A DNA stretch of 64,000 nt, from IMG/VR virus record IMGVR_UViG_3300003332_000015, positions 82,576-146,575 of that record; one strand, written 5' to 3'. The notes below the pieces were generated by a model. That model made no database searches. It saw nothing but the letters and a program-made list of their open reading frames with translations, and was not told where the DNA came from. Shown here piece after piece: positions 8,930 through 40,736 of the stretch; the stretch's first letter is position 1; every line of letters begins with the position of its first letter. Made by a program: the position numbers and the translations under genes. This stretch comes from a virus (Duplodnaviria; Heunggongvirae; Uroviricota; Caudoviricetes).

Positions 8930-9751
8930 ATGAAGAGATATGGTTATGTCTATATAACAATTAATTCAGTTAATAATAAAAAATATATTGGACAACATAT
9001 CTCTTCTGAATTTGATTGTTTATATAGAGGTTCAGGTTCCCTCATAGTAAAAGCAATAAAAAAATATAGAAAAAGAAACTTTAAAGTAACACTTTTGGAA
9101 TGGGCGTACTCTTTAGAAGAGCTTAACTCTTTAGAACAAAAGTATATTAGAAAGTATAATGCAGTACAGTTAGACGAATTCTATAATTTAGAGTCAGGAG
9201 ATAGAAACTGTCCTTGTTCTGAAGAGAGAATTCAAAAATATAAGAATACTGTTTACAATACTATTGAAAGTAATGGGTTAACTATTGCCCAAAATATTGG
9301 TCTTAAAGTTTCTAAATCACAGAATGAAATTCAAGAAAATGGAAAAACTAAAGTACAAAATTCTGGTAAAAAGTTTTCTAAGGCAGTAACAACTACTATA
9401 CAAGAAAATGGTTTAACTATAGCACAGAATATAGGAAGAAAGTCAATAGCATCACGTAAACGAATAGAAGATAATGGTTTAACCGTTGTACAAAATACTA
9501 ATATTAAATCAGCAAAAGTTAAAAAAAATACAATATTACCTAATGGTTTAAGTATTGCTCAAGACGCATCTATAAGAGCAGCTAAAACAATGAAAAAAAT
9601 TGAGAGTAATGGAAAAACAATAAAACAAAATAGATTAGAAAAAAGACAGAAAACAATGGCTAAGATAGGTGAAGATGGATTAAATGGATTCCAAAGATCT
9701 TCACTTAGATGTAAAGAAACAAAACTAAAAAATAAGAGGAATAAAAAATGA
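8930..9751 (+). CDS. GIY-YIG homing endonuclease with NUMOD3-like repeats
   Basis: N-terminal YGYVYITIN...YIGQ (GIY-YIG) and repeated NGLTIAQNIG... units. Confidence 0.75.
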   Translation: MKRYGYVYITINSVNNKKYIGQHISSEFDCLYRGSGSLIVKAIKKYRKRNFKVTLLEWAYSLEELNSLEQKYIRKYNAVQLDEFYNLESGDRNCPCSEERIQKYKNTVYNTIESNGLTIAQNIGLKVSKSQNEIQENGKTKVQNSGKKFSKAVTTTIQENGLTIAQNIGRKSIASRKRIEDNGLTVVQNTNIKSAKVKKNTILPNGLSIAQDASIRAAKTMKKIESNGKTIKQNRLEKRQKTMAKIGEDGLNGFQRSSLRCKETKLKNKRNKK

Positions 9752-10845
9752 GTCAATCAATTGTTTTGGGTTTAGGTTTTGGAGATGAAGGAAAAGGTTT
9801 AGTAACAGATTGGTTATGTTCTAAAGTATTTAAACCTGCTGTTATAAGATATTCAGGTGGACATCAAGTTGGACATTGTGTACGTACTGAAACAGACAAA
9901 CATATTTTTTCTAATTTTGGTTCTGGTACGTTAAGAGGTGTTCCTACATTTTGGAATGCAAAGACTGTTGATCCTGTAGGATTTTGTAAGGAGTATAAAG
10001 TACTTTCTTCTTTTGATCCTATTATACAGATCGATCCCTTGTGTCCAGTTACTACTCCTTATGAAAAAGAATTAAATCAAATAAATGAAATAACAAATAA
10101 TCATGGTAGTATCGGAGTTGGTTTTGGTACTACCATTGAAAGAGAAGAAAAAAATTATCATTTGTATTTTCAAGATTTATTTTATCCACCATTACTGCAA
10201 GCAAAATTAGATAGTATAAAAAAGTATTATAGAACTGAAAAAAATATAATGGTATACCCAAAGGTTATTACACAATTTCTTAATAGTTGTCAAGAAATGA
10301 CTAAATTAGTAAAAACTGATTTAGATGTATCAGATGGATATAATCATATTTATGAAAGTTCACAAGGTCTAATGATAGATATGGACTATGGTATTTTTCC
10401 TAATGTTACACGTTCCAAATTAGGAACACAAGAACTTGAAGTAAATGAATTTACAGACTACTTTTTAGTAACAAGAGCTTATCAAACAAGACATGGAAAT
10501 GGTTATTGTTCTGATAGATCATACACTCCTTCAGGTTTTACTGTAGATGAAACAAATTTTCAAAATAAATATCAAGGTGAGTTTAAAACAAGAATTCTTG
10601 ATTTAGATTTACTAAAGTATGTAATGACTATTGATAAAGGAATAAGAGAATCTAATAGAAAGAATTTAGTTATTACATGTTTAGATCATATGAAGACTTA
10701 TGAATTTATGTATAAAGGGAAAATTGTTGTTTTTGAAAATGAATATTATTTTATACAGGCTATTGGTAATATTTTACCAAAAGTAAATTACATATATTTA
10801 AGTCATGGACCAACAGCAGAAGACATAGATTTATTTATATCATGA
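9748..10845 (+). CDS. purA: adenylosuccinate synthetase-like protein
   Basis: N-terminal GLGFGDEGKGLVTDWL P-loop and GVGFGTT motif are characteristic of PurA; shorter than bacterial PurA. Confidence 0.65.
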   Translation: MSQSIVLGLGFGDEGKGLVTDWLCSKVFKPAVIRYSGGHQVGHCVRTETDKHIFSNFGSGTLRGVPTFWNAKTVDPVGFCKEYKVLSSFDPIIQIDPLCPVTTPYEKELNQINEITNNHGSIGVGFGTTIEREEKNYHLYFQDLFYPPLLQAKLDSIKKYYRTEKNIMVYPKVITQFLNSCQEMTKLVKTDLDVSDGYNHIYESSQGLMIDMDYGIFPNVTRSKLGTQELEVNEFTDYFLVTRAYQTRHGNGYCSDRSYTPSGFTVDETNFQNKYQGEFKTRILDLDLLKYVMTIDKGIRESNRKNLVITCLDHMKTYEFMYKGKIVVFENEYYFIQAIGNILPKVNYIYLSHGPTAEDIDLFIS

Positions 10846-11267
10846 AAAAAGTTGCAGTAGTTGGTTCTCGTACATTTAAAGATTTTAAACTCTTAGAAAA
10901 AGAAATTACTAATATAATTAAAATAAACGATATTAGTGAAATTGTTTCTGGTGGTGCTAAAGGAGCTGATAGAGTAGGTAGATCATTTGCTACTATACAT
11001 AAACTTTCTTTAAAAGAGTTTATTCCTAATTGGAAAGTAAATGGTGTTTATAACTCTCGTGCAGGATTTGAACGTAATAATCTTATTATTGAAAGAGCTG
11101 ATATTGTTTTTGCATTTTGGAATGGAGAAAGTAGAGGTACTAAAAATAGTATTGACTTAGCTAAAAAGTTAGGTAAAGAATTACATGTTATCTACTTTGA
11201 AGAAGTTTCTTATACAAAAGAAGAACTAGAAGTTTTCAAACAAAGAGATAAAATGATTGGTTTGTAA
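10842..11267 (+). CDS. DprA/SLOG-like Rossmann-fold protein
   Basis: VAVVGSRTF...SGGAKGADRVG resembles the DprA/DUF2493 nucleotide-binding motif. Confidence 0.45.
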   Translation: MKKVAVVGSRTFKDFKLLEKEITNIIKINDISEIVSGGAKGADRVGRSFATIHKLSLKEFIPNWKVNGVYNSRAGFERNNLIIERADIVFAFWNGESRGTKNSIDLAKKLGKELHVIYFEEVSYTKEELEVFKQRDKMIGL

Positions 11268-11269
11268 AT

Positions 11270-11310
11270 TTCTTTTAAAAAACTGTAAAAAAATATTATT
11301 ATATTAATAT
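11270..11310 (+). promoter_or_regulatory. phage promoter motif
   Basis: ttttaaaaaactgtaaaaaaatattattatattaat. Confidence 0.5.
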
Positions 11311-11491
11311 GGAAACTGTAACAATAGAGTTAGAAGAAAATATACTATTACAATTATGTTTATTAGCACATGAAAAAGACATTACTCTTAATGTACTTGT
11401 AAATAATATTTTAAGAGAGTATATTGAAAAACATGGGGATGATCAGGTTTCGACTAATGAGGTAAATAAAGACGACGATAATTGCATTTAA
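11309..11491 (+). CDS. small hypothetical protein
   Basis: 60-aa ORF after a promoter motif. Confidence 0.3.
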   Translation: METVTIELEENILLQLCLLAHEKDITLNVLVNNILREYIEKHGDDQVSTNEVNKDDDNCI

Positions 11492-12429: not shown

Positions 12430-12435
12430 ATTTTA

Positions 12436-12541
12436 GCAGGTTAGTGTAAAGGTAACACGGGAGTCTCATTAATATTATATGGTGAGTAGTATTAATAAGC
12501 TCCTGCCGAAAGGCTTCAAGGTTCGAGTCCTTGGCCTGCTA
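12436..12541 (+). tRNA. type-II (long variable arm) tRNA-like gene with a ~27-nt insertion or extension in the anticodon loop
   Basis: Acceptor gcaggtt/ggcctgc, T-arm caagg-TTCGAGT-ccttg, variable-arm hairpin gccGAAAggc, anticodon stem ggagt/gctcc enclosing a 34-nt loop. Confidence 0.55.
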
Positions 12542-12797: not shown

Positions 12798-12913
12798 TGG
12801 GAAGTAGCTCAGTGGTAGAGCAGCGGAATAGTTTTACTTTTCGCTTATAGCATAAAAAGTTCCTAACACTTATTAGGATCCGCAGGTCGTTGGTTCGAAT
12901 CCAACTTTCCCAA
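12798..12913 (+). tRNA. type-I tRNA gene interrupted by a 44-nt insertion in the anticodon loop (identity undetermined)
   Basis: Canonical acceptor (tgggaag/tttccca), D-arm tagctcagtggtagagc, anticodon stem gcgga/tccgc, T-arm gttgg-TTCGAAT-ccaac. The loop is 51 nt and contains ACTTTTCGCTT-AT-AGCATAAAAAGTTCCTAA. Confidence 0.65.
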
Positions 12914-13281: not shown

Positions 13282-13371
13282 TGGGGGAGTAGCTCAGCGG
13301 GTAGAGTAGCTCTTGTAAGTCATGAAATTTTTGTGATGGAGTTGGTCGGTAGTTCAAATCTATCCTTCCCC
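13282..13371 (+). tRNA. type-I tRNA gene with a ~19-nt insertion in the anticodon loop
   Basis: Acceptor gggggag/cttcccc, D-arm tagctcagcgggtagagt, T-arm ggtag-TTCAAAT-ctatc. Loop ttgtaag...ttgtgat carries canonical heptamers at both ends (GUA at 5', GUG at 3'). Confidence 0.6.
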
Positions 13372-13373
13372 AC

Positions 13374-13597: not shown

Positions 13598-13840
13598 ATG
13601 AATTTAGGTAAAAAAGGAACAGATATAATAACTGGTTTTACTGGAACAGTTGTTGGTTATGTTGAATATTTAACAGGTTGTAACCAATATTTAATTGTTC
13701 CTGAATGTCGTAAGGGTGAAACTAATAAAAAACCAAGTGGAGAATGGATAGACGATAATAGAATTAAAATTGAAAAAGGAAAAACAATTGATCTATTTAG
13801 AACTAACTCTACTGGATCAGACATTTCACCACATACATAA
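13598..13840 (+). CDS. hypothetical protein
   Basis: 80-aa ORF with RBS. Confidence 0.4.
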   Translation: MNLGKKGTDIITGFTGTVVGYVEYLTGCNQYLIVPECRKGETNKKPSGEWIDDNRIKIEKGKTIDLFRTNSTGSDISPHT

Positions 13841-13849
13841 AAATAATTT

Positions 13850-13898
13850 ATTTTTTATTTAACAAACTGTAATAATTTATTATTATATTAATGTAAGT
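13850..13898 (+). promoter_or_regulatory. phage promoter motif (full consensus TTATTATTATATTAATGTAAGT)
   Basis: Its +1 region runs directly into repeat unit 1 of the array. Confidence 0.55.
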
Positions 13899-14306
13899 AA
13901 GCAAAGGAAGTTCCTAATAATATTCAATTGGTGGAAAAACTTACTTCCCGCTTACATAATTTATTTAGTGTAAGGAAGCATAGAAGGTTCCTAAACAAAG
14001 AATTTTAATCTAAACTACCTTCCGCTTCGCTTATTATATTGTTTATTAATTGGGCATAAAGGGTTCCTATAAAAAAAATACGGAAAACATTTGATTTACC
14101 CTTCGCCCTTATTTTGTTTATTAAGGCATTGAAAGTTCCTAAATAACCTGACTTAAAATCAGGCTCAGCCGAAAGGCTAAGCTATTTACTTTCCGCCTTT
14201 ATTATATTATATAAAATGGAGCATAGGAAGTTCCTATTAAACAATCCAATCGGGAAGTAACCCTAGTGGTGAAAACCCCGATTATCAGTGTATTACTTCC
14301 CGTTTC
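13897..14306 (+). repeat. tandem array of five structured-RNA-like units
   Basis: Units at ~13897-13955, 13974-14030, 14052-14108, 14123-14199 and 14218-14306. Each has 5' stemA-N3/4-stemB-GTTCCTA, a variable core, then 3' stemB'-(C)G-stemA'. Stems covary between units (gtaagc/gcttac, gaagc/gcttc, gggc/gccc, aaggc/gcctt, ggagc/gtttc with G·U pairs). AT-rich promoter-like linkers separate units. Confidence 0.7.
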
Positions 14307-14326
14307 TAATTTTTAAGGAGATGAAA

Positions 14327-16258
14327 ATGATATCTACATTAAGACTATTCAATGGTGTAATTGTTGACGACAAAACAACTAAAGGTCGAAATGATTATGT
14401 TGAAACTGAATTTCAAAAAGAAACTATGAAGAAAGGGTATATTATAGATGAAAAAATCTATAGTACTATGTCTTTCACCGATATTGATCGACTTCATAAT
14501 GTTATTGAAACAGAAGTATTAACTTCTTATGAAAATTGGAATAATGCTTTTTATAAATCTTGGAGTAAATTAGAAACACTTTCTGATCTTGAATTACGTG
14601 TTGATCAGTTACTACATTACTTTACTACATACGGTTTTGAAGCTCTTGGAATAAATAATTCTTTTGTTTATATACCAGAAGGTACAATTGATCTTCCTGA
14701 ACTTGATAAAGATCTTTCTTTCCTTTATATAAAAGCATTAAGCTGGGAAGAAGTAAAAGGTAGACTTGACAGTCTTATTGGTTCCGGTGTTGCTATGTCT
14801 GAACAAACTCAGTTAGACATTATGGAAGTTTATGAAGAGATTGGTTTTGATGCTTCTATTTTAGAAGTTTGTAAAAATAAAGAATTAAAAACTCGTTTTT
14901 ATGAGAAGTATGACTTAGTACCAAAAAATGCAACAGAGTTTTTAAGATATGTAATTATGAAGTCAACAGGAAATTCTCTTGTAATAAAAGATAAGGCAAC
15001 AATCGAGTCTATCAAAATTGGTGGTGGTAAAAAAGAAGTATTAGACACTTTTACTAAGTATGAAAACAGCTATGGTCTAACAGAACTTGCTTCCTCTTTT
15101 TATAGATATAAACCTTTATGGTTAGCTTTTAAAAGTTACACAGGTTTAAGTCCTATGATAAATAAAATTAGAAGATTAGCAGTTAATTACCATAAACCAA
15201 TGAAGGCTGATTTACTTAATGATTTAACAGGAATGTTAAATAGAAAAGAAAATATAAGTTATCCTGAATTAAATAGGGCTCTTGACAAAGCAAATAGTTT
15301 TAGAAAAATAAGATTACTATATGCTTTACAAAATAGAAAGAGTAAAAATACTGAAGTTGTTTATAGAATAAGAAACGGTAAGTCTTATGCAACAAATAGA
15401 GTTATAAATTCTAATCTTTTAGGTGTTGCTACTGTACGTAAGATTGTATACTCTTCTTTAGTTAAAGACTTAAAAGAAAAAGTGGAGAATAAACTTGTTT
15501 ATTTATCACCTAATATTAATTATGCTCTTCCTGCAACTGAAAAACAATTTGTAGGTAATTTTCCTACAGGAACATCTGTAGCAATAGATAAAGATAAAGA
15601 TGTAATCATGGGAGTACACTGGACTAATCAACAACAGAAAAGAGTTGATCTTGATTTATCACTTATTGATATTTCAGGTAACAAGTATGGTTGGGATGGA
15701 TCTTATAGAAATAGTAATAGATCTGTAATGTTTTCAGGAGATTTTACAAATGCACCATTACCAAAAGGAGCTACAGAATTATATTACTTTAAAGGTATAC
15801 AGGATGGAAGTTACTTAGTTAATATCAATTATTATAATAGTTTATATAGTGGTGATGGAGAAGATGTTCCTTTTGATATTGTAGTAGGTGGAAGTGTTGC
15901 TAATAAATCAAATAGAGGATTTATGATTAGTCCTAATGAAATAGTAGCACAAGTTCCTTCATTTATGGGGAACGACCAACAAGTAATTGGTCTTGTTATA
16001 ATTAAAGAAGGACAAGGAACCTTTTACTTTGCTGAAGCAAAAGTTGGTGTAGGACGTACTTCAAGAGGAACTGATACTGCAATGATACATCAAAAGTTCT
16101 TAGTTAATACATTGGAAGATACTATTGACTTTGAAAAGTTATTACTGGATGCAGGAGCTCTTACTACACGAGGTAAAGAGGATAATCCTCAGGATATAGA
16201 TTTTGATTTTTCAGTTGAGTCTATATCAAAAGACTCTATTTTAGAACTTTTTTATTAA
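14327..16258 (+). CDS. large hypothetical protein (~643 aa)
   Basis: Long ORF; ATG at 14327 six nt after AAGGAG. The track ORF begins upstream at a GTG that overlaps repeat unit 5. Confidence 0.6.
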   Translation: MISTLRLFNGVIVDDKTTKGRNDYVETEFQKETMKKGYIIDEKIYSTMSFTDIDRLHNVIETEVLTSYENWNNAFYKSWSKLETLSDLELRVDQLLHYFTTYGFEALGINNSFVYIPEGTIDLPELDKDLSFLYIKALSWEEVKGRLDSLIGSGVAMSEQTQLDIMEVYEEIGFDASILEVCKNKELKTRFYEKYDLVPKNATEFLRYVIMKSTGNSLVIKDKATIESIKIGGGKKEVLDTFTKYENSYGLTELASSFYRYKPLWLAFKSYTGLSPMINKIRRLAVNYHKPMKADLLNDLTGMLNRKENISYPELNRALDKANSFRKIRLLYALQNRKSKNTEVVYRIRNGKSYATNRVINSNLLGVATVRKIVYSSLVKDLKEKVENKLVYLSPNINYALPATEKQFVGNFPTGTSVAIDKDKDVIMGVHWTNQQQKRVDLDLSLIDISGNKYGWDGSYRNSNRSVMFSGDFTNAPLPKGATELYYFKGIQDGSYLVNINYYNSLYSGDGEDVPFDIVVGGSVANKSNRGFMISPNEIVAQVPSFMGNDQQVIGLVIIKEGQGTFYFAEAKVGVGRTSRGTDTAMIHQKFLVNTLEDTIDFEKLLLDAGALTTRGKEDNPQDIDFDFSVESISKDSILELFY

Positions 16259-16614: not shown

Positions 16615-17274
16615 ATGAGTATAAAAATTAAAGAAGAATGGAAGAATCAAGAAGGATTATATATTTGTCCTGTATGTCAAAAAAGATATACTAAAAATGG
16701 AATAAGTACACACATTTGGAGAATGCACGGTGAAGGTAACAATCATAAACCTTTTAAAAATAAAATAACATGGAATAAAGGTTTAACTAAAGAAACCGAT
16801 GATCGTGTTAAACAACAAGGTATTAATTTTAGTAAAGCTTTTAAAGAAGGGAAAATAAAATCTAGAAAAGGAACAAAATTATCTAAAGAAATTTGTAAAA
16901 AAATTTCAATAGGTATGCAAAAAGTAGTTAGAGATAATCCAGAATCTTATAATTCTAAGAATGTATGTGGTAGAGTAAAAAATATAGATTATAATGGATT
17001 TACTCTTAAAGGTAATTGGGAACTTTTAGTTGCTAAGTTTTTAGATTCGAAAGGGATTAAATGGACTAATATAGTTGAACCTTTTACTTATATTTGGAAA
17101 GGTAGTAAACATTTATATTTTCCTGATTTTTATCTTTTAGAAAGAGATGAATATATTGAAGTTAAAGGATATGAAAGGCCTAAAGATGTAGAAAAATGGA
17201 AGGTAGTAAGTAATTTAAGAATTATTAAACTTAAAGAAATTAATAACATTAAAAACAATTTATATTGTATATAA
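16615..17274 (+). CDS. PD-(D/E)xK-nuclease-like protein with N-terminal C2H2-type zinc finger (possible homing endonuclease)
   Basis: CPVCQ...HIWRMH zinc finger; FPDFYLLERDEYIEVKG fits a PD-(D/E)xK motif. Confidence 0.45.
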   Translation: MSIKIKEEWKNQEGLYICPVCQKRYTKNGISTHIWRMHGEGNNHKPFKNKITWNKGLTKETDDRVKQQGINFSKAFKEGKIKSRKGTKLSKEICKKISIGMQKVVRDNPESYNSKNVCGRVKNIDYNGFTLKGNWELLVAKFLDSKGIKWTNIVEPFTYIWKGSKHLYFPDFYLLERDEYIEVKGYERPKDVEKWKVVSNLRIIKLKEINNIKNNLYCI

Positions 17275-17346: not shown

Positions 17347-17587
17347 TTTTTAAAACCTTTTAAATAAGGTGTACTAACATAATAAAGGATTATAAAAGAA
17401 ATAATGAATATTTTGAAAAGTCAAAAACAGTTTAATTTATCTCAACTCTTAGCCATCGTTTCACCTGTATGGTTTAATGATTATAGAGTAATGAGGAGAT
17501 TGTATTGACAGTGTGATTCTACATGTTAATTTTGATATACAATCCCTTATAATTTATAAAGGATTTTTTTTATGATTATTTATCATA

Positions 17588-17631
17588 AAATTTAAAAAGT
17601 TTTAAAAAATTATTATTATATAAGTGTAAGG
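17588..17631 (+). promoter_or_regulatory. phage promoter motif upstream of the tRNA cluster
   Basis: tttaaaaagttttaaaaaattattattatataagtgtaagg. Confidence 0.55.
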
Positions 17632-17659
17632 AGTATATTTTGTTTAGTGACTTTAGAAT

Positions 17660-19325: not shown

Positions 19326-19378
19326 TGGACAGAGATAAGGCCTTATCTCTTAATGGTGGTTCGATTCCATCTTTCTGA
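19326..19378 (+). ncRNA. tRNA-like minihelix element (acceptor-like stem + GGCC-loop hairpin + canonical T-arm); not a full tRNA
   Basis: cagaga...tttctg stem, hairpin agagataaGGCCttatctct, T-arm ggtgg-TTCGATT-ccatc. Homologous to the 21485-21633 element. Confidence 0.4.
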
Positions 19379-20520: not shown

Positions 20521-20529
20521 TAAAAGTTT

Positions 20530-20580
20530 TTAAAATTTATTTAAAAAAACTTAAATTTTTATTATTATATTAATGTAAGT
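20530..20580 (+). promoter_or_regulatory. phage promoter motif
   Basis: ttaaaaaaacttaaatttttattattatattaatgtaagt. Confidence 0.55.
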
Positions 20581-20592
20581 AAAAGAAATTAA

Positions 20593-21356: not shown

Positions 21357-21477
21357 GGCCGAATGGCGGAACTGGTAGACGCGCCGGACTTAGAGCAGCT
21401 TCGGATTGGAAACAATGGAGCTCCTCTAAAATCCGGTTCCTGTAATGGGAGTGAGGGTTCGAGTCCCTCTTCGGCTA
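21357..21477 (+). tRNA. type-II tRNA-Leu-like gene with a ~36-nt insertion in the anticodon loop
   Basis: Acceptor ggccgaa/ttcggct, Leu-type D-arm ggaactggtagac, stem ccgga/tccgg around a 43-nt loop beginning cuUAGag (UAG at canonical position, A37), long variable arm, T-arm gaggg-TTCGAGT-ccctc. Confidence 0.6.
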
Positions 21478-21484
21478 ATATTAT

Positions 21485-21633
21485 GGCAGAATAAGCCTTA
21501 TTTTTGAGATGTTATAACGAAAAGTACTTAGTAGTTATAGTGTGTTAATTATACTGTACTGATATTGGAAAGATGATTTATTTGTTGCAACATTTAGAAA
21601 GTCTTAATGGAGGTTCGATTCCTTCTTCTGTCC
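21485..21633 (+). ncRNA. tRNA-like element: 7-bp acceptor-like stem + canonical T-arm with ~100-nt internal insertion
   Basis: ggcagaa...ttctgtc pairing; T-arm ggagg-TTCGATT-ccttc; flanks taagcctta and cttaatgg collinear with the 19326-19378 element. Confidence 0.4.
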
Positions 21634-22156: not shown

Positions 22157-22471
22157 ATGAAATATATAAAGAATGATTTAACAGAATTAAGAAAGAAAAT
22201 TAAGGAAACGAGAGAAATAAGTAAGACAGCAAAAGATATGTGGGATAGATCATCCGCACAATGTAAGTTACATAGTTTAAAACAACAATACAGAAATAAA
22301 CATGTATTGTATTGTTTATGTAAAGGTCGTACTTATAAAGAAATTGAAGCTAAAGTACGTGAAGATAATGAATTACATATTCCAAGTTTAAAAAGATTAT
22401 GTATAGGATATGAAACATTATCTTTTAATGAAATTAGTGAGGAACAGTTAGAAGGATTATTAAAATGGTAA
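22157..22471 (+). CDS. hypothetical protein
   Basis: 104-aa ORF. Confidence 0.45.
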   Translation: MKYIKNDLTELRKKIKETREISKTAKDMWDRSSAQCKLHSLKQQYRNKHVLYCLCKGRTYKEIEAKVREDNELHIPSLKRLCIGYETLSFNEISEEQLEGLLKW

Positions 22472-22833
22472 AGCAAGTAATAATTGTTAGAACTGATTTG
22501 GATATGCCTCTTGGAAGAATTTCGGCACAAGCAGCACATGCTTCAATTGCAGTTTTTCTTGATATGGGAAAATGGAACAAAGATAGTTTTACATTAAATA
22601 ATGTTCCAGAGGATATTCAGTATTGGATGAAAGAATCTTTTACTAAAGTAATATTAAAAGTTCATAGTGAAGAAGAATTAAATGCTTTAGCAGAATATGC
22701 TGAATTAACAAACTTACCTTACGCAATGATATCTGACGATATTAAAAAGAAAATGCACAAGATGGCTTTAGCCATTGGTCCTGCAACAAACGATAAATTA
22801 GATGTTATTACAAAAGGTTTAAAACTTTTATGA
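22465..22833 (+). CDS. peptidyl-tRNA hydrolase, PTH2 family
   Basis: N-terminal VIIVRTDLDMPLGRISAQAAHA matches the PTH2 signature. Confidence 0.65.
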   Translation: MVKQVIIVRTDLDMPLGRISAQAAHASIAVFLDMGKWNKDSFTLNNVPEDIQYWMKESFTKVILKVHSEEELNALAEYAELTNLPYAMISDDIKKKMHKMALAIGPATNDKLDVITKGLKLL

Positions 22834-22881: not shown

Positions 22882-22954
22882 GCCCTTATCGTATAATGGT
22901 TAGTACAACACCCTCTAAAAGTGTTTGGTTTGGGTTCGACTCCCAATAAGCGGC
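22882..22954 (+). tRNA. tRNA-like gene with anticodon CUA (putative amber suppressor); acceptor stem imperfect
   Basis: D-arm gtataatggttagtac, stem acacc/agtgt (C31·A39), loop cuCUAaa, T-arm ttggg-TTCGACT-cccaa. Acceptor gccctta vs taagcgg pairs at 5 of 7. Confidence 0.45.
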
Positions 22955-24516: not shown

Positions 24517-25233
24517 GTGAGTAGAATATTTGTAACAGGCGATACACATGGTGGAGCTGTTGGTGATTTGGATAAATTAACATCAGACAGCTTTAAAGAA
24601 GGAAAAACACTTACTAAAGATGATTATGTCATTATATGTGGTGATTTCGGTTTGATTTGGGATGTTAAAAAAAGTAGTAAAAGAGAACAGTATTATTTAG
24701 ACTGGTTAGACGAAAAACCTTGGACCACTTTATTCCTTGATGGTAACCATGAAAATCATAAAAGATTAGATGCTTTACCAACTGAAATTAAGTTTAATAA
24801 TCCTGTAGGTAAAGTAAATAATTCAATTTACCATTTAAGAAGAGGATACATTTATACTATAAATAAACAATATTTTTTTGTTTTTGGTGGTGGATTTTCT
24901 ATAGACAAAGCAAGACGAACTACTGATATCTCTTGGTGGGAAAGAGAAATGCCTAATCAAGAAGAATACCAAAGAGGTTTTGATCAATTAGCTTTTCATG
25001 ATAATAAAGTAGACTATATACTAACTCATTCTTGTAGTAATAAAATGTTTAAAGAACTATCTTATCATCAAAACATGGATCATAAAATATCTGGAGAAGA
25101 TGATTTAAGAAATTATTTTGATACAGTTGAGGAAACAGTTAAGTACAAAAGATGGTATTATGGCCACTTTCATTATGATTATCTTTTTGATAAATCACAA
25201 ATATTATATAATTTAGTTGTAGAATTGATTTAA
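24517..25233 (+). CDS. sbcD: SbcD/Mre11-like nuclease (T4 gp47-like metallophosphoesterase)
   Basis: GDTHGG and GDF...GNHE phosphoesterase motifs; immediately upstream of the SbcC-like gene, as in T4 47-46. Confidence 0.7.
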   Translation: MSRIFVTGDTHGGAVGDLDKLTSDSFKEGKTLTKDDYVIICGDFGLIWDVKKSSKREQYYLDWLDEKPWTTLFLDGNHENHKRLDALPTEIKFNNPVGKVNNSIYHLRRGYIYTINKQYFFVFGGGFSIDKARRTTDISWWEREMPNQEEYQRGFDQLAFHDNKVDYILTHSCSNKMFKELSYHQNMDHKISGEDDLRNYFDTVEETVKYKRWYYGHFHYDYLFDKSQILYNLVVELI

Positions 25234-25269
25234 AAAATGTAAATAATTTATTATTATAGTAGTATAAGG
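25232..25269 (+). promoter_or_regulatory. phage promoter motif upstream of sbcC
   Basis: taaaaaatgtaaataatttattattatagtagtataagg. Confidence 0.45.
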
Positions 25270-25282
25270 AAAATAAAAATAA

Positions 25283-27304
25283 ATGATTATACACTCACTA
25301 GATTTAGAAAACTATGGAATTATTAAAAAAGCAAACTTAATTTTTAATGAAAAAGGGTTTAATGTATTCTCTGGTAGTACAGGACAAGGTAAATCACATA
25401 CTATTAGAGCTTTAAATTATTTACTATTTAATTATACATATGGTAAAATTGAAGATGATTGTAATTGGGATTCCAATTTCTTTTCTGCTGAAGTTAAGTT
25501 AAGTCACAATTCAAATAATTTTAAAATCTCTACTTTTTATGATAGGGATAATGGTGCAAGTAAAGAACTTGTTATTAATAATAAGAGTATAACAGGAAAT
25601 AATGAAGTTAAGGATACTCTTGCTAAATATTTTGATCCGTCTATAACAAAAGCATCTATGGTATCTTTGCAAGGTAGTATGGACATTGTTGAAGCAGGTG
25701 ATGCTGAAAGACGTGAATATTTAAAAAAAATATATGACTTAGATTTTAAAACACAAATTGATTCTATAAAAGAAGACATAGAAAATGTTAGTGATAAAAT
25801 TATTAAAATTGAAAAAGATATTTATCTGTATGAAAATAAAGAATATATACCTACTGATGAAAAAGATTCTAATGTAACAGAAGAAGAATATATTAAATGT
25901 GGACTTGAGAGAGAAGTATTAATAGTTAAAAAAGATAATTTACAACAATTACTTGATAAGGTAGATGATCTTTTACTACGAATTACAAAAGAAGAAAATA
26001 ATATTAAAACTTTACAAGAAAAAAAAGAAACTCTAGAAAATAGAACAACAGAAGTACAGAGTTCCTTAGACAAGGTAACAAAGGAAAGTAAAAATTCTCT
26101 TATTAAATATTATGCTGATCTTTTAAAACTTAATAAAGAGAAAGATGATATTGTATTAAAAAGAGTTCCTGCTTTTGATGAAGATAACTTAAACATAAAA
26201 GAAAAAGAATATGCTGATAATTTAATTTCTTTTCATAGTGCTAAAAAAGAATATGAATTAACTCAATTAGGATTATGTCCTACTTGTAAAAAACCTTTTG
26301 AAGTAACTGAAATTGAAACATATAAAAACGAATATGAAACTTCTTTAGAAAGGAAAGAAAGTAGTCTTACTGTAGTAAACAGTTTACGAAATCAAAAAAA
26401 AGATATCGATAATTTACAAAAAAAACAAAATGAACTCAAAGAAAAAAAGAATAGTCTAATAAAAGATATTAACTCATTAGACCTATTACAAAAGTCTTCA
26501 GTTACATACTCCGATGCACAAGTGTTAGATAAAACGACTATACTACAAGAAAAATTTAAAGAGATACAATTAATTTCTCTTGAAATAATATCTAAAGAAA
26601 AAGATAAAGAATTATTAATTTCTGAAAAAACCTCTATAGTAAATAAAACTACCGACCAAACTGATAACACAGATAGAATTAATGAGTTAAGATTGGTTAC
26701 TGATACTTATGAATCAATACAAATAGAAAATGATTTAATAATAAAAGCTAATATTAAATTAGCACAACAACAAATAGATGATGTTAAAAAATTACAAGAG
26801 TATACAAAAGAAAAAGTTAAATTAATAAAGACAAAAGATGAGTATGAAGTTATTAAAGAAATATTAAGAGTTGACTTTCCAAAGTTTGTTATTAACTCAA
26901 TGGTTTCAGATATTGAAAATGGTATGAATAAACTTTTAGATTTATCATACGATGGAAGATACAACTGTAGTATATCAGAATCAAAAAAAGGTTTACAAAT
27001 ACTATATGGAGATAAACAAAAAGATATTAAATTAAGCTCAGGTGGTGAACAAAATCTTTTTAATTTAGGATTTAAAAATGCTCTTACACAAATTGCAAAA
27101 CTTAAGATTTTAATACTTGATGAAGCTGATAACTTTTTAAGTGGTGACATTGCAAAAAGAGCTTTTGAAAGTTTAAACCAACTAATTGAGAACGGTGATA
27201 TCGATCAGATATTTTTAATATCACATAAAGAAGAAATTCGTGATATGATTGAAACAGATTTTAATGGAAAAATTTTCCATTTTGAAGAAGGAGAAGTATA
27301 TTAA
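25283..27304 (+). CDS. sbcC: SbcC/Rad50-like ATPase (T4 gp46-like)
   Basis: Walker A FSGSTGQGKSHT, long coiled coil with CPTC zinc hook, C-terminal ILILDEADNFL Walker B/D-loop. Confidence 0.8.
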   Translation: MIIHSLDLENYGIIKKANLIFNEKGFNVFSGSTGQGKSHTIRALNYLLFNYTYGKIEDDCNWDSNFFSAEVKLSHNSNNFKISTFYDRDNGASKELVINNKSITGNNEVKDTLAKYFDPSITKASMVSLQGSMDIVEAGDAERREYLKKIYDLDFKTQIDSIKEDIENVSDKIIKIEKDIYLYENKEYIPTDEKDSNVTEEEYIKCGLEREVLIVKKDNLQQLLDKVDDLLLRITKEENNIKTLQEKKETLENRTTEVQSSLDKVTKESKNSLIKYYADLLKLNKEKDDIVLKRVPAFDEDNLNIKEKEYADNLISFHSAKKEYELTQLGLCPTCKKPFEVTEIETYKNEYETSLERKESSLTVVNSLRNQKKDIDNLQKKQNELKEKKNSLIKDINSLDLLQKSSVTYSDAQVLDKTTILQEKFKEIQLISLEIISKEKDKELLISEKTSIVNKTTDQTDNTDRINELRLVTDTYESIQIENDLIIKANIKLAQQQIDDVKKLQEYTKEKVKLIKTKDEYEVIKEILRVDFPKFVINSMVSDIENGMNKLLDLSYDGRYNCSISESKKGLQILYGDKQKDIKLSSGGEQNLFNLGFKNALTQIAKLKILILDEADNFLSGDIAKRAFESLNQLIENGDIDQIFLISHKEEIRDMIETDFNGKIFHFEEGEVY

Positions 27305-27669
27305 TGACATTAGATGATTATCAAAAAAAGACTGCTGAAACAGCAATCTACTTAAATAAAGCAAAGGCTTTAAAACCAACACCAGAACAAATGTTTAAAA
27401 TGATTGAATTAGGTTACTTAGGAAATGGACTTGGAGAAGCAGGTGAAATACAAGGTAAACTAAAGAAAATAATTAGAGACAAGGGTGGTAATTTTGATTC
27501 AACCGATGCTAAAGAAATTGAAAAAGAAATTGGTGATGTACTTTGGTATTTAGCTCGTCTTTGTGATGTACTTGGTATTAGTTTACAAAGTGCTATGGAA
27601 GGAAATATTGAAAAACTTTTCAGTCGTAAAGAAAGAGGAGTTTTAGAAGGTAACGGTGATAACAGATGA
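27304..27669 (+). CDS. mazG: MazG-like nucleoside triphosphate pyrophosphohydrolase
   Basis: EAGEIQGKLKK...EIGDVLWYLARL motif. Confidence 0.75.
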   Translation: MTLDDYQKKTAETAIYLNKAKALKPTPEQMFKMIELGYLGNGLGEAGEIQGKLKKIIRDKGGNFDSTDAKEIEKEIGDVLWYLARLCDVLGISLQSAMEGNIEKLFSRKERGVLEGNGDNR

Positions 27670-31020: not shown

Positions 31021-31053
31021 AACCGTCTTTCTTTATGTTAGACGGTTTTTTTA
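31021..31053 (+). terminator. rho-independent terminator after the transporter gene
   Basis: aaccgtct...agacggtt stem followed by T7. Confidence 0.7.
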
Positions 31054-31059
31054 TGATTT

Positions 31060-31113
31060 TTTTTAAATTCTTTTTAAAAAGTTTTAAAAAAATATTATTA
31101 TATAAGTGTAAGG
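31060..31113 (+). promoter_or_regulatory. phage promoter motif upstream of pnk
   Basis: tttaaaaagttttaaaaaaatattattatataagtgtaagg. Confidence 0.55.
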
Positions 31114-31121
31114 AGATTGGA

Positions 31122-32003
31122 ATGCAAACAGTTTATATAATGAAAGGACTTCCTGCATCAGGTAAGTCAACAAAAGCAAAACAGATGGTAGAAATGTCTA
31201 GTGGTAATCTTAAAAGAATTAATAAAGATGATTTAAGAGCTATGATGGATACTAAGTGGAGTAGAGAAAGAGAGAAACTTGTAATTGCTACAAGAGATTC
31301 TATTATTAGAACTTGGCTTTTTGAAGGGTTTGATGTAGTTGTTGATGATACAAATCTGGCAAAAAAACATATTACAAGAATTGAATCAATTGTGAACGAA
31401 TATAATAAAAAGTATAACAAAGAAGCAATAACAAAAATTATTGATTTCTCTTATACTGTAAGTGTTCACGAGTGTTTACGTCGAGATCGTAAAAGAGAAA
31501 ATCCTGTTGGTGATGATACTATATGGAGAATGTATAGTCAATTTATTGAATGGACAAAACCTGAAGTAAAAAAAGATAATAGTAAAGAAGATGTTTATCT
31601 TTGTGACTTAGATGGAACTATTGCTTTACATAATGGTAGAAATCCTTACTTATATGAAGAGTGTATACATGACTTACCTAATATGCCGGTTGTTAATGTT
31701 ATAAGGGCACTTATTAAATCTGATTTTAAAGTTGTATTTGTTACAGCAAGAGAAGATATTGGTAACTCAAAATCATTAACAATACAGTGGATTGAAGAAT
31801 ATATTGGTTTAAAAGATCCTATAGTTATTACAAGGGAATTAGGTGATAACAGAAATGATGGTATTACTAAAAGAGAAATGTATAACAAATATATTTTTCC
31901 TAAGTATAATGTTATTGGTGTATTTGATGATCGTAAAAGAGTTATTGATATGTGGCGTGATATGGACATCATGGTTTTTGATGTTGCAGGTCATACGTTT
32001 TAA
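31122..32003 (+). CDS. pnk: polynucleotide 5'-kinase/3'-phosphatase (T4 Pnk-like)
   Basis: N-terminal P-loop GLPASGKST plus C-terminal HAD motif LCDLDGTIA; start at ATG 31122 after AGGAG. Confidence 0.85.
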   Translation: MQTVYIMKGLPASGKSTKAKQMVEMSSGNLKRINKDDLRAMMDTKWSREREKLVIATRDSIIRTWLFEGFDVVVDDTNLAKKHITRIESIVNEYNKKYNKEAITKIIDFSYTVSVHECLRRDRKRENPVGDDTIWRMYSQFIEWTKPEVKKDNSKEDVYLCDLDGTIALHNGRNPYLYEECIHDLPNMPVVNVIRALIKSDFKVVFVTAREDIGNSKSLTIQWIEEYIGLKDPIVITRELGDNRNDGITKREMYNKYIFPKYNVIGVFDDRKRVIDMWRDMDIMVFDVAGHTF

Positions 32004-33547: not shown

Positions 33548-34681
33548 ATGCTTAAGCTACAAGAGTTTATTAAAGAACATCCTCTTAATTTTCAAGAGTT
33601 TCTTTCAGAGAAACCTTATTGTATTAAGATGCAGGAAGACAAACATTTTATGTTATTTAAATATTCCCAAATCGATAGTGATTTCACTAATCAGCTTGTA
33701 AGAGAATGTCGAGGTATTATACTTGATAAAAATGATTGGTCTATTGCTTGTCACCCCTTTCACAAGTTTGGTAATTATGGTGAATCGTATGTTCCTGAAA
33801 TTGATTGGGATTCAGCTAAAGTACAGGAAAAACTTGATGGTTCTTTAATTAAATGTTGGTATAATAAATATGAAGATAATTTTCAATGGTCCACTAATGG
33901 AACTATTTATGCAAGCTCAGCAAATTTACAAGTACCATTAAATGGATTTGACAATTTTGATCAACTCATAAGTTATACATTAATGTCTATAGGGAAGACA
34001 ACAGTTACATCTATGATGATGAAAGAGTATACTTATTTATTTGAACTATGTACTCCTCATAATAGAGTAGTAGTACCACATAAAGATTTTGAATTATATC
34101 ATTTATCAACTAAACATAATGAAACAGGAAAAGAAATAATTCAAATATTAATGATGCCTGTCCCTAAAGTTTACTCTTTATTAACATTGGAAGAATGTAT
34201 TGAAACAGCAAATGAGTTACCTTTTAATGAAGAAGGTTATGTAGTAGTTGATGATAAATTAAATAGAGTTAAAATTAAGTCACCAGCTTATTTAGCTATA
34301 CACCATTTAAAAGGTGAAGGTATTGTTTCTGAAAAAAGAGCATTAGATTTAATAAGAATGAACGAGCATAAAGAATTTCTTTACTACTATGATGAGTATA
34401 CAGATTTTTTTGATGATTTAGAAAAAAGATATAATCAATTTATGGAAATTATAGACTATGATTTAGATGAAGCAAAGAGTTTTATACATACAAAAAGAAA
34501 AGTATTTGCACATTGGGCAAATACTTATTCTGTATTACCTTCTGCATGTTTTCAGTTTTATGATGGTAAAATTAAAACAGCAAAAGAGGCTATAACTAAT
34601 ATGACTAGTGAAAGGATGCTACCTCATTTAAAGAATGTACTCATTTTAAATATGGAAGGTGAGATTGGTAAAGGGTTATAA
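33548..34681 (+). CDS. rnl: RNA ligase (T4 Rnl1-like)
   Basis: Motif I EKLDGSLIK (KxDGS) at ~residue 95; co-located with pnk. Confidence 0.6.
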   Translation: MLKLQEFIKEHPLNFQEFLSEKPYCIKMQEDKHFMLFKYSQIDSDFTNQLVRECRGIILDKNDWSIACHPFHKFGNYGESYVPEIDWDSAKVQEKLDGSLIKCWYNKYEDNFQWSTNGTIYASSANLQVPLNGFDNFDQLISYTLMSIGKTTVTSMMMKEYTYLFELCTPHNRVVVPHKDFELYHLSTKHNETGKEIIQILMMPVPKVYSLLTLEECIETANELPFNEEGYVVVDDKLNRVKIKSPAYLAIHHLKGEGIVSEKRALDLIRMNEHKEFLYYYDEYTDFFDDLEKRYNQFMEIIDYDLDEAKSFIHTKRKVFAHWANTYSVLPSACFQFYDGKIKTAKEAITNMTSERMLPHLKNVLILNMEGEIGKGL

Positions 34682-39506: not shown

Positions 39507-40736
39507 ATGAAGATTCGTAAAATGGGAATCATTATATTTGTTGGGCTGATACTTATTGTATTGGCGATGATGATGGGAAACATTGTAGAAACTGTTGATG
39601 GTGGTGAAATACATGTTAAGCAGGGTGCTGTTTCTGGAGACTTTACAGTAATTGTAGATGAAGGTTTATATATGCAGATGTTTGGTAAGATAACTACTTA
39701 TCAAAGAATGTATAGAACATATTTATCTGATGACGATCTTGACGGTGGTAAAGGTGCTGAAACCAGTAGTATTAATGTAAGATTTGGTGATGGTGGAACA
39801 GCAGATATATCTTCAGTAACAGAATGGAGACTTCCTTTAACAACTGAGGCTATGGTTAAAATTAAAAGAAATTATACTTCTTCAGCAATGATAGCTGATC
39901 AAGCTAGACAGTGGGTTATTGAAGTTGAAAAGCAAGTTGCTTCAACGTTTAAAGCTGATGAAACTTATAGCACAAGACGTGGAGAATTTTCACAGTTAAT
40001 AACTGAACAGATTATTAATGGTTTATATAAAACTGAAGCTGTACAAATTGAAATGCCAACCAATGAAGTTGATGATGATGGTAATCCTATTATGGGAACG
40101 TCTACTATTGTAAGAGTAAAACTTGATGATGATGGAGAACCAATTATTGTAAAAATTGGAACATTCCGTGAGTATGGTTTAACACTTGTAGATCATAAGT
40201 TAAAAGACATTGATTATGATGATACTATTGATAAGTTAATATCTCAGAAAAAAGAAGCTGAACAGCAAAGAGTTGTAGCTATTACAAATGCTGAAAAAGC
40301 AAAACAGGATGCTATAACAGCTGAAGAAACTGGAAAGGCAAGAGTTGCACAAGCACGTGCTGATGAAGAAGTTGCAAAGATTACTGCTGTAACAAGAGCT
40401 GAAAAAGATAAAGCTGTAGCTGAACTTAAAGGTAATCAGGAACTTGAAGTTGCAAGACTTGATAAGTTAGCAGCAGGGGAAGCTGCTTCTGCTAGGCTTA
40501 TTACTGAGAAAGCTGAAGCAGACGCAAATAAGTTAAAAGTATCTGCTGGTCTTACACCACAGCAAGCAGCTGAATGGGACTATAAGATTGCAGATGTTGT
40601 ATCAAAGAACCTTGCAAGTGTTGATCTTCCTGACATGATGATATTTGGTGGAGGAGAAGGGTCTCCTATGAATCCTTGGGATGCAGTTGGACTTGAGTCT
40701 TTTATGAATATTGCAGATCAAATTACAAATAAATAA
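39507..40736 (+). CDS. SPFH/band-7-like membrane protein with Ala/Glu/Lys-rich coiled-coil tail
   Basis: N-terminal TM then a VDGGEIHVKQG...GLY region like SPFH domains; long charged coiled coil. Confidence 0.5.
   Translation: MKIRKMGIIIFVGLILIVLAMMMGNIVETVDGGEIHVKQGAVSGDFTVIVDEGLYMQMFGKITTYQRMYRTYLSDDDLDGGKGAETSSINVRFGDGGTADISSVTEWRLPLTTEAMVKIKRNYTSSAMIADQARQWVIEVEKQVASTFKADETYSTRRGEFSQLITEQIINGLYKTEAVQIEMPTNEVDDDGNPIMGTSTIVRVKLDDDGEPIIVKIGTFREYGLTLVDHKLKDIDYDDTIDKLISQKKEAEQQRVVAITNAEKAKQDAITAEETGKARVAQARADEEVAKITAVTRAEKDKAVAELKGNQELEVARLDKLAAGEAASARLITEKAEADANKLKVSAGLTPQQAAEWDYKIADVVSKNLASVDLPDMMIFGGGEGSPMNPWDAVGLESFMNIADQITNK

What the first reader, a model, noticed from the sequence alone, without database searches (positions are those of the whole stretch)
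12798..12913. tRNA gene whose anticodon loop carries a 44-nt insert made of the array's end box plus start box
The exons form a textbook type-I tRNA: acceptor tgggaag/tttccca, D-arm tagctcagtggtagagc, anticodon stem gcgga/tccgc, T-arm gttgg-TTCGAAT-ccaac. The loop, however, is 51 nt. Its content, ...ACTTTTCGCTT-at-AGCATAAAAAGTTCCTAAca..., reads as the 3' end box of the 13.9-kb repeat family (cf. CTTCCGCTT / CCTTCGCCCTT) followed directly by the family's 5' start box (cf. GCATAAAGGGTTCCTA / GCATAGGAAGTTCCTA). The tRNA 5' half therefore sits where a unit 'core' plus end box would be, and the 3' half where a start box plus 'core' would be. That is the arrangement expected if the boxes pair (here intramolecularly: acttttcgc/gcataaaaagt) to define a processing site, as complementary leader/trailer sequences do in archaeal split or intron-containing tRNAs. 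The phage encodes Pnk and RNA ligase(s), the healing and sealing activities such a pathway needs.
Basis: partly seen in the sequence, partly recalled or inferred. Interest (0 to 1): 0.9.

Follow-up and report, generated by a model that had tools for sequence, protein, structure and literature searches.

The report
tRNA-shaped Y-like RNA, not intron
What looks like a phage tRNA gene split by a 44-base insert is most likely a small non-coding RNA that uses a tRNA body to display a conserved hairpin, one that in many phages, bacteria and archaeal genome bins sits next to the gene of one uncharacterised ~640-residue protein, much as Y RNAs sit next to Ro60.

Summary
Positions 12798-12913 form a complete tRNA cloverleaf whose anticodon loop is 51 nt, and the insert is the end box plus the start box of the 13.9-kb repeat units, which pair. 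The splicing interpretation is not supported.

The boxes form a covarying 6-bp helix with a GC clamp and an invariant GUUCCU. This module lies just upstream of homologues of ORF 14321-16258 in 74 of 77 viral loci, and also in bacterial and archaeal genome bins. It comes in three forms:
- short stand-alone units;
- YrlA-like units, with the helix open at the RNA ends and a tRNA-like core with a closed acceptor stem;
- the circular permutation seen here, a real tRNA body with the helix closed by a loop.

Thirty-one members of the third form were found. Their tRNA arms and the helix covary, some encode CCA, and removing the insert restores no consistent anticodon.

The partner protein has an α-helical part and a TerD-like fold and shows no detectable homology to Ro60.

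Best reading: a non-decoding, tRNA-scaffolded partner RNA of that protein, analogous to Ro60/Y RNA. Protein binding and function are inferred, not shown.

The parts
12798..12913 (+). Whole tRNA-shaped RNA gene: a tRNA body with the partner-protein module in place of the anticodon loop.
   Evidence: RF00005 at 56.2 bits. The class-specific model R1 scores it 112.8 bits, against at most 59 bits for ordinary tRNAs.
12798..12827 (+). 5' part of the tRNA body: acceptor 5' strand 12798-12804, D arm 12807-12821, anticodon-stem 5' strand 12823-12827.
   Evidence: The acceptor, D and anticodon stems show compensatory changes in 31 homologues.
12828..12835 (+). AU-rich single-stranded linker (AUAGUUUU) between the anticodon stem and helix H1.
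   Evidence: The homologues have 5-8 AU-rich nt here, with no conserved anticodon-like triplet.
12836..12844 (+). The 'end box': H1 3' strand ACUUUU (12836-12841), a C, then the GC clamp (12843-12844).
   Evidence: UAC and CGC are invariant in the class. H1 and the clamp covary.
12845..12849 (+). Closing loop UUAUA. It sits where the stand-alone units have their 5' and 3' ends.
   Evidence: Homologues have 5-7 nt of variable sequence here.
12850..12860 (+). The 'start box': GC clamp (12850-12851), 3-nt bulge AUA (12852-12854), H1 5' strand AAAAGU (12855-12860).
12861..12878 (+). Invariant UCCU(A) followed by a local hairpin UCCUAA-CACUUA-UUAGGA (H2) that abuts the anticodon stem.
   Evidence: GUUCCU is invariant or nearly so across the class. 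H2 forms in the minimum-free-energy fold. Its UCC/GGA core pairs in only 64.5% of cells and shows no covariation, so H2 is unproven.
12879..12913 (+). 3' part of the tRNA body: anticodon-stem 3' strand 12879-12883, variable loop, T arm 12889-12905, acceptor 3' strand 12906-12912, discriminator A 12913. No CCA is encoded.
   Evidence: CCA is encoded at positions 74-76 in 8 of 29 homologues.
13901..13953 (+). Stand-alone unit 1, directly after a phage promoter-like repeat (13840-13900).
13978..14027 (+). Stand-alone unit 2.
14054..14108 (+). Stand-alone unit 3.
14126..14199 (+). Stand-alone unit 4, with a structured core.
14221..14305 (+). Stand-alone unit 5. It ends about 10 nt before the AAGGAG (ribosome-binding-like) sequence of the partner gene.
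14321..16258 (+). Gene of the presumed partner protein (643-645 aa): an α-helical N-terminal part and a TerD-like C-terminal domain. No Pfam family matches.

Best explanation
12798-12913 encodes a stable, non-decoding RNA of about 116 nt that keeps its insert.

Its tRNA body (acceptor, D, T and anticodon stems) probably gives it tRNA-like folding, end processing and CCA addition. In place of the anticodon loop it displays a conserved module:
- a 2-bp GC clamp;
- a 3-nt bulge;
- a 6-bp purine/pyrimidine helix (H1);
- the invariant GUUCCU.

This module is the shared signature of the small RNAs encoded next to the ~640-aa protein of ORF 14321-16258, and it is most likely that protein's binding site.

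The RNA is the circular permutation of the YrlA-like units of the same family. In those, the helix is open at the RNA ends and the acceptor stem is closed. Here the acceptor stem is open and the helix is closed.

By analogy with Ro60/Y RNA, the tRNA module would couple the protein to tRNA-handling enzymes or substrates, or act as a gate or decoy, inside a phage tRNA and RNA-repair gene region.

**Shown:** the structure, its conservation, the permutation, and the genomic linkage.

**Inferred:** that the insert is retained, that the protein binds it, and any biological role.
For: 1. **Linkage.** The module lies within -700 to +100 nt of the start of the homologous ORF in 74 of 77 viral loci. Its density there is 3.5 per kb against 0.07 per kb elsewhere, usually as 2-3 copies. 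The same holds in bacterial and archaeal genome bins and in cultured cyanophages S-CRM01 and S-CBWM1. No other gene is a conserved neighbour.
2. **H1 is a real helix.** Anchoring only on the invariant flanks, the four variable positions are fully complementary in 258 of 458 candidates. Shuffled pairings give a mean of 36 and a maximum of 52.
3. **The tRNA-embedded form is a family.** There are 31 members at 83 bits or more with model R1. In them 95.2% of cells pair, 23 of 32 pairs show compensatory changes, and 0 of 500 shuffles reach any of the five measures. The slid-register controls collapse to 40-52% paired.
4. **tRNA-like ends.** CCA is encoded at positions 74-76 in 8 of 29 members, where about 0.5 is expected by chance.
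5. **Sibling units are Y-RNA-like.** Units in other loci match Rfam YrlA over its full length at 35-49.5 bits, E 1e-5 to 1e-10. Segment by segment they are the circular permutation of the window RNA.
6. **Precedent for the setting.** A true Ro60 gene sits beside the tRNA array of Gordonia phage Boopy. Y RNAs are encoded next to Ro60 in bacteria and phages (PMC4201824, PMC12135203).
Against: - There is no RNA or binding data. Protein binding rests on co-occurrence alone.
- The last unit abuts the ribosome-binding site, so a cis-regulatory role for some units is possible.
- H2 is not supported by covariation.
- The alignment used for the pair counts was fitted to the model, which favours the structure.
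Confidence: 0.7

Rival explanations
1. Intron-bearing or split-type tRNA. Pairing of the boxes defines a cleavage site, and Pnkp plus RNA ligase heal and seal the ends to give a mature decoding tRNA.
For: - The tRNA body is perfect.
- The window encodes Pnkp, an Rnl1-like ligase, a second RNA ligase and a HAD domain of the RNA-repair type.
- Three other tRNA-like genes in the window also carry anticodon-arm inserts.
Against: - No consistent anticodon or 7-nt loop is restored across 31 orthologues.
- There is no bulge-helix-bulge at the exon borders.
- The identical module sits in about 200 non-tRNA units and in cores with a closed acceptor stem.
- GUUCCU is an invariant motif inside the insert, which is unlike a spacer-type intron.
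- No EndA or RtcB was found in the 50 ORFs scanned.
- The module is linked to the 640-aa protein, not to the ligase genes.
Confidence: 0.07
2. The module is mainly a cis-acting operator in the leader of the protein's mRNA, for translational autoregulation. The tRNA-embedded copy would be a titrating decoy or have no independent role.
For: The units lie immediately 5' of the ORF. The last one ends about 10-30 nt before the ribosome-binding site in most loci.
Against: - Arrays hold up to 8 units.
- In the window each unit is preceded by its own promoter-like AT-rich box.
- Some copies lie downstream of the gene (L017, L031) or 1.4 kb away behind other tRNA genes, as in the window.
- Elaborate tRNA-like cores in both permutations, and encoded CCA ends, are not expected of an operator.
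Confidence: 0.1
3. The helix is a processing signal. An endonuclease cuts at its base or loop, releasing units from a precursor and cutting the tRNA-shaped RNA into two halves that stay paired (a nicked, split tRNA-like RNA).
For: The closing loop of the window RNA occupies exactly the place of the 5' and 3' ends of the stand-alone units. The loop sequence is not conserved.
Against: No candidate nuclease is linked to the module. Unit 5' ends coincide with promoter-like boxes in the window. This also does not explain the invariant GUUCCU or the linkage to the protein.
Confidence: 0.05
4. A dead tRNA gene disrupted by insertion of a small mobile or palindromic element derived from the array.
For: The insert duplicates array sequence. 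Homing-type endonuclease genes lie nearby (8930-9751, 16615-17274).
Against: The same architecture is found in 31 loci from phages and bacteria whose partner proteins are only 30-45% identical. All stems show compensatory changes, and the position next to the protein gene is fixed.
Confidence: 0.03

Closest known systems
Bacterial and phage Y RNAs of the YrlA type with Ro60/Rsr (Rfam RF02553; Chen et al. 2014, PMC4201824; Thermus phage phiLo Ro60, PMC12135203)
   Same: - Small RNAs are encoded next to the gene of their partner, often several per locus.
- They are modular: a bulged helix plus a tRNA-like domain.
- Sibling units of this family match the YrlA model over its full length.
- The genomic setting is similar: a true Ro60 gene lies beside a phage tRNA array.
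   Different: - The partner protein has no detectable TROVE or vWA homology. It carries a TerD-like domain instead.
- The module sequence differs: GCAUA-R4GU-UCCUA here, against an AUGCu internal loop plus an extra 7-bp helix in the YrlA consensus.
- All scores are below the Rfam gathering threshold of 69 bits.
- The window RNA is the opposite permutation: true tRNA ends, with the helix closed by a loop.
tRNA introns: archaeal/eukaryal bulge-helix-bulge introns, and bacterial group I introns in tRNA anticodon loops
   Same: Extra sequence interrupts the anticodon loop of an otherwise canonical tRNA gene.
   Different: There is no bulge-helix-bulge and no group I core (44 nt only). No conserved anticodon is restored. 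The insert is itself the conserved, protein-linked element.
Engineered 'tRNA scaffold' RNAs, in which an RNA of interest replaces the anticodon loop to gain stability and processing (Ponchon & Dardel 2007; from my own knowledge, not checked here)
   Same: The architecture is identical: a functional RNA module grafted onto the anticodon stem of a tRNA body.
   Different: This one is natural, conserved, and paired with a dedicated protein gene.
Circularly permuted tRNA-like RNAs: permuted or split tRNA genes and two-piece tmRNA (from my own knowledge), and the YrlA-versus-tRNA 3D permutation (PMC11472068)
   Same: Two forms are related by circular permutation around a tRNA-like core.
   Different: Here both permutations coexist as paralogous classes of one RNA family next to the same protein gene. 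Neither is expected to mature into a decoding tRNA.

Membership tests
Decoding tRNA | Cloverleaf with the conserved tertiary nucleotides. | tested here: met
   RF00005 at 56.2 bits. All four stems covary in 31 homologues.
Decoding tRNA | A 7-nt anticodon loop (U33, purine 37), with the anticodon conserved among orthologues. | tested here: not met
   The loop is 51 nt. After notional removal of the insert, orthologues give unrelated 'anticodons' and AU-rich linkers.
Archaeal/eukaryal-type tRNA intron | A bulge-helix-bulge (3-nt bulge, 4 bp, 3-nt bulge) at the exon-intron junctions. | tested here: not met
   Neither the minimum-free-energy fold nor the covariation-supported structure has such a motif at the borders.
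Archaeal/eukaryal-type tRNA intron | A splicing endonuclease (EndA) and a ligase (RtcB) are available. | tested here: inconclusive
   Pfam found no EndA or RtcB in 50 ORFs of at least 120 aa. Pnkp and two RNA ligases are present. Only 64 kb of a contig of about 146.6 kb was visible.
Group I intron in a tRNA | A catalytic core (P3-P9) of at least about 200 nt. | tested here: not met
   The insert is 44 nt, and Rfam gave no group I hit.
YrlA / Y RNA (RF02553) | The score reaches the Rfam gathering threshold. | tested here: not met
   The window RNA gives no YrlA hit. Sibling units in other loci score 35-49.5 bits, against a threshold of 69.
YrlA / Y RNA (RF02553) | A tRNA-like domain joined to a bulged protein-binding helix. 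| tested here: met
YrlA / Y RNA (RF02553) | The binding helix is formed by the 5' and 3' ends, and the acceptor stem is closed by a loop. | tested here: not met
   The window RNA has the opposite permutation. Sibling units do meet this feature.
YrlA / Y RNA (RF02553) | Encoded next to a Ro60 (TROVE + vWA) gene and bound by that protein. | tested here: not met
   The neighbouring protein has no TROVE or vWA hit in 30 members. Profile-profile probability against a Ro60 alignment is 0.1. The structural match to Ro60 is weak. Binding cannot be tested with these tools.
The family defined here (model R1: a tRNA body with the module in the anticodon loop) | A full-length match well above ordinary tRNAs, with the invariant UAC...CGC...GC...GUUCCU. 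| tested here: met
   The window RNA scores 112.8 bits, against at most 59 bits for ordinary tRNAs. It was part of the seed alignment, so this match is partly by construction. Members not in the seed (L016, L138, L156, and the second copies in L118 and L152) score 83-96 bits.

The most novel reading that the evidence does not exclude
The ~640-aa protein (α-helical part plus TerD-like domain) and its array of small RNAs form a Ro60-independent, convergently evolved 'Y-RNP'.

- It is widespread in tRNA-rich phages, bacteria and archaeal genome bins.
- One of its RNA classes is a genuine tRNA body with CCA ends that carries the protein's binding site instead of an anticodon.
- It would work in tRNA surveillance, repair or decoy functions during the contest with host anticodon nucleases.
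- To my knowledge, and in the paper library searched, it has not been described.
Probability: 0.35. Interest if true: 0.85.

Novelty: new variant of a known kind. Interest (0 to 1): 0.75.

Why it matters
- **A second protein family with tRNA-mimicking partner RNAs.** If the protein binds these RNAs, this would sit beside Ro60/Y RNA and would be just as widespread. The family occurs in cultured cyanophages S-CRM01 and S-CBWM1 and in cellular genomes such as Ktedonobacter racemifer.
- **Both permutations in nature.** The same module is used with either circular permutation of a tRNA body. This is also a natural counterpart of the engineered 'tRNA scaffold'.
- **Annotation.** These genes are silently missed, or called 'tRNA with intron' or 'pseudo-tRNA'. 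At least one annotated ORF (S-CRM01 g173c) lies antisense over the RNA units.
- **Biology.** The module sits inside phage tRNA arrays next to RNA-repair genes, which points to a role in the tRNA-centred arms race between phages and hosts. That role is now testable in cultured systems.

Tried and rejected
- **Known RNA family for the array.** Rfam gave nothing better than E 1.5, all far below the gathering scores.
- **Close GenBank phage.** blastn found only tRNA-sized matches.
- **Partner protein is Ro60.**
  - No Pfam or PHROG family for the window protein, and no TROVE, vWA or TerD hit in 30 members.
  - No PDB sequence hit.
  - hhalign probability 0.1 against Ro60, both with a single sequence and with a 24-sequence profile.
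- **Unit cores as guides.** The longest sense or antisense matches elsewhere in the window are no better than for shuffled cores.
- **A conserved third gene.** All-against-all clustering of neighbouring ORFs in 161 loci found only spurious antisense ORFs and generic phage genes.
- **Bulge-helix-bulge or group I intron.** Absent.
- **A major-groove triplex between the U-rich linker and the purine strand of H1.** I looked at this by eye. One locus (L031) fits and the others do not, so I dropped it.
- **H2 (UCC/GGA).** It forms in the window RNA but is not supported by covariation.
- **Literature.** Six full-text searches found nothing on a TerD-like partner or an unpermuted tRNA-embedded Y-like RNA. 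The library does not include most subscription journals.
- **AFDB search.** The afdb50 library was not available.

Full report
**1.

Rfam's tRNA model matches 12798-12913 over its whole length at 56.2 bits (E 2e-9 for the window). It places 51 nt where the 7-nt anticodon loop belongs. ARAGORN skips the gene by default and, with introns allowed, calls a 44-nt intron. All four arms and the usual tertiary nucleotides are present.

The insert reads AUAGUUUU-ACUUUU-C-GC-UUAUA-GC-AUA-AAAAGU-UCCUAA-CACUUA-UUAGGA. The five tandem units at 13901-14305 read GCAUA-[6 nt]-UCCUA...core...[complement]-CGCUU. So the insert is indeed their end box followed by their start box.

The full motif occurs six times in the window, in these two places only. 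The 6-mers differ between copies but remain complementary. The minimum-free-energy fold of the gene is a cloverleaf carrying the box helix.

**2. The boxes belong to a protein-linked RNA module.**

The array ends at the ribosome-binding site of ORF 14321-16258 (643-645 aa). This ORF has no Pfam or PHROG family. The protein has more than 1,300 database homologues, all unnamed.

I fetched 80 IMG/VR loci around homologues that are 34-45% identical.
- In 74 of the 77 with upstream sequence, the module lies within -700 to +100 nt of the ORF start, usually as 2-3 copies and up to 8.
- Its density there is 3.5 per kb, against 0.07 per kb elsewhere.
- The three exceptions carry it slightly further away or in a variant form.

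The same holds for 80 loci from bacterial and archaeal genome bins and isolates. It also holds for the cultured cyanophages S-CRM01 (gp174, five units) and S-CBWM1 (gp22). No other gene is a conserved neighbour.

I then searched using only the invariant flanks as anchors. The four variable helix positions are fully complementary in 258 of 458 candidates. Shuffled pairings give a mean of 36 and a maximum of 52.

The consensus is a terminal stem of variable length ending in GC/GC, a 3-nt bulge, a 6-bp purine/pyrimidine helix (H1), and the invariant GUUCCU.

**3. The module has three architectures, and two are circular permutations of each other.**
- **(i) Short units.** These have an unstructured or hairpin core. 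Window units 1-5 are of this kind.
- **(ii) YrlA-like units.** The order is H1 5' strand, UCCU, anticodon-stem 3' strand, T arm, an acceptor stem closed by a loop, D arm, anticodon-stem 5' strand, AU-rich linker, H1 3' strand. Several match Rfam YrlA over all 114 positions at 35-49.5 bits. These scores are significant but below the gathering threshold of 69.
- **(iii) The window type.** The same elements are rotated, so the acceptor stem is open and H1 is closed by a 5-7 nt loop.

That the YrlA tRNA-like domain is a circular permutation of tRNA is already known at the 3D level (PMC11472068). Here both permutations occur next to the same gene family.

**4. The tRNA-embedded class is a conserved family.**

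A covariance model built from 26 copies (R1) scores 31 loci at 83-119 bits. The window copy scores 112.8 bits, while ordinary tRNAs score at most 59 bits.

On the 31-member alignment:
- 95.2% of cells pair;
- 23 of 32 pairs show changes on both sides;
- none of 500 shuffles reaches any of the five measures;
- sliding the register drops pairing to 40-52%;
- the acceptor, D, anticodon and T stems, H1 and the GC clamp are each supported;
- the UCC/GGA hairpin (H2) is not supported (64.5% paired, no covariation).

The alignment was fitted to the model, which favours the structure. However, an unconstrained RNAalifold run on a MAFFT alignment recovered the acceptor, D and T stems, H1 and the clamp, with covariation in the acceptor, T and H1 stems.

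CCA is encoded at positions 74-76 in 8 of 29 members. This argues for genuine tRNA-type 3' ends.

ARAGORN's notional anticodons for these near-identical bodies are unrelated to one another, and the 5' linker is simply AU-rich. No decoding identity is conserved.

**5. The partner protein.**

AlphaFold2 with 30 sequences gives mean pLDDT 80. The model has an α-helical N-terminal part of about 400 residues and a β-rich C-terminal domain.
- At sequence level, 30 members show no TROVE, vWA or TerD hit.
- Profile-profile comparison with a Ro60 alignment, seeded from the Ro-like protein of Gordonia phage Boopy, gives probability 0.1.
- NCBIfam finds only a partial match of residues 411-484 to the SCO0854 family.
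- Full-length structural relatives exist in Campylobacter virus IBB35 and Lactobacillus phage LpeD.

I therefore treat the protein as an analogue of Ro60, not as a member of that family.

**6. Genomic context.**

In the window, in S-CRM01 and in S-CBWM1, the gene sits inside the phage's tRNA array.

The window also encodes:
- Pnkp;
- an Rnl1-like RNA ligase and a second RNA ligase;
- a HAD domain of the 'Swiss Army Knife' RNA-repair type;
- a Band-7 protein;
- a PTH2 peptidyl-tRNA hydrolase.

Pfam found no EndA or RtcB in the 50 ORFs of at least 120 aa that were scanned.

**7. Interpretation.**

The best-supported reading is a non-decoding, tRNA-scaffolded partner RNA of the 640-aa protein, analogous to Ro60/Y RNA. 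The structure, conservation, permutation and linkage are shown. Retention of the insert, protein binding and the biological role are inferred.

The rivals are less likely, for the reasons given under each:
- a spliced intron;
- a cis-acting operator;
- a processing site that yields paired halves;
- a dead tRNA gene disrupted by an insertion.

None of them is excluded without RNA data.

**8. Novelty and limits.**

Neither Rfam 15 nor six full-text searches turned up this module, its TerD-like partner, or an unpermuted tRNA-embedded Y-like RNA. Chen et al. (PMC4201824) searched only next to TROVE genes.

The library lacks most subscription-journal papers, so prior description cannot be ruled out. 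All the evidence here is comparative, and nothing shows expression.

Noticed in passing
window 12435-12541, 13283-13372, 21357-21477: Three more tRNA-like genes carry inserts in the anticodon arm (Rfam tRNA 36.5, 48 and 47 bits). None has the GUUCCU module. Each insert extends the anticodon stem into a long hairpin. The flanking loop nucleotides could give CAU, GUA and UAA anticodons. UAA and a second CAU are otherwise missing from the phage's tRNA set. These are better candidates for real short introns, or for another tRNA-like RNA class, than the finding itself.
   Followed up: partly
window 22882-22954: A tRNA with a CUA anticodon (an amber suppressor, which ARAGORN labels 'Pyl') lies in the tRNA array. 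It may indicate TAG recoding or suppression. TAG usage in the ORFs was not examined.
   Followed up: no
window 9748-10845: An adenylosuccinate-synthetase homologue has as its only PHROG match the PurZ-type family ('2-aminooxy adenylosuccinate synthetase', phrog_1211). A MazG-like gene lies at 27304-27669. Together they suggest a possible 2-aminoadenine (Z) genome.
   Followed up: no
window 11256-11316, 13840-13900, 17573-17633, 20522-20582, 25211-25271: A repeated AT-rich box of about 60 nt (…TTATTATTATATTAATGTAAGTAA) precedes gene and RNA blocks. It is probably the phage's own promoter type. Shorter versions precede units 2-5 of the array.
   Followed up: partly
window 19348-19373 and 21602-21627: Two nearly identical (92%) isolated T-arm-like segments (TCTTAATGGNGGTTCGATTCCNTCTT) lie outside any called tRNA. 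The second sits just upstream of ORF 21661. They may be tRNA fragments or minimal tRNA-like elements.
   Followed up: no
window 31035-32003, 33548-34681, 42376-42924, 44133-45269, 39507-40736, 22465-22833: The window has a rich set of RNA-repair and tRNA-related genes: Pnkp, an Rnl1-like ligase, a HAD_SAK_2 domain, a second RNA ligase with a PHA02142 OB domain, a Band-7/SPFH protein and a PTH2 peptidyl-tRNA hydrolase.
   Followed up: partly
L166 2791-2937 (Synechococcus phage S-CRM01, HQ615693 132391-132537): The annotated ORF g173c lies antisense across three of the five RNA units upstream of gp174. It is probably a mis-annotation. In S-CBWM1, two 'pseudo-tRNAs' are annotated just downstream of the homologous gene.
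   Followed up: partly
L085-L164: Homologues of the protein, with the RNA module upstream, occur on multi-megabase contigs of bacteria (Ktedonobacter racemifer, Desulfobacterales, Bythopirellula, Melioribacteraceae). They also occur in many Asgard and DPANN archaeal genome bins. The module is therefore not confined to phages. Whether those copies lie in prophages was not checked.
   Followed up: partly
window 8930-9751 and 16615-17274: A GIY-YIG homing-type endonuclease gene and a second endonuclease gene (phrog_15137) flank or interrupt the tRNA and RNA region.
   Followed up: no
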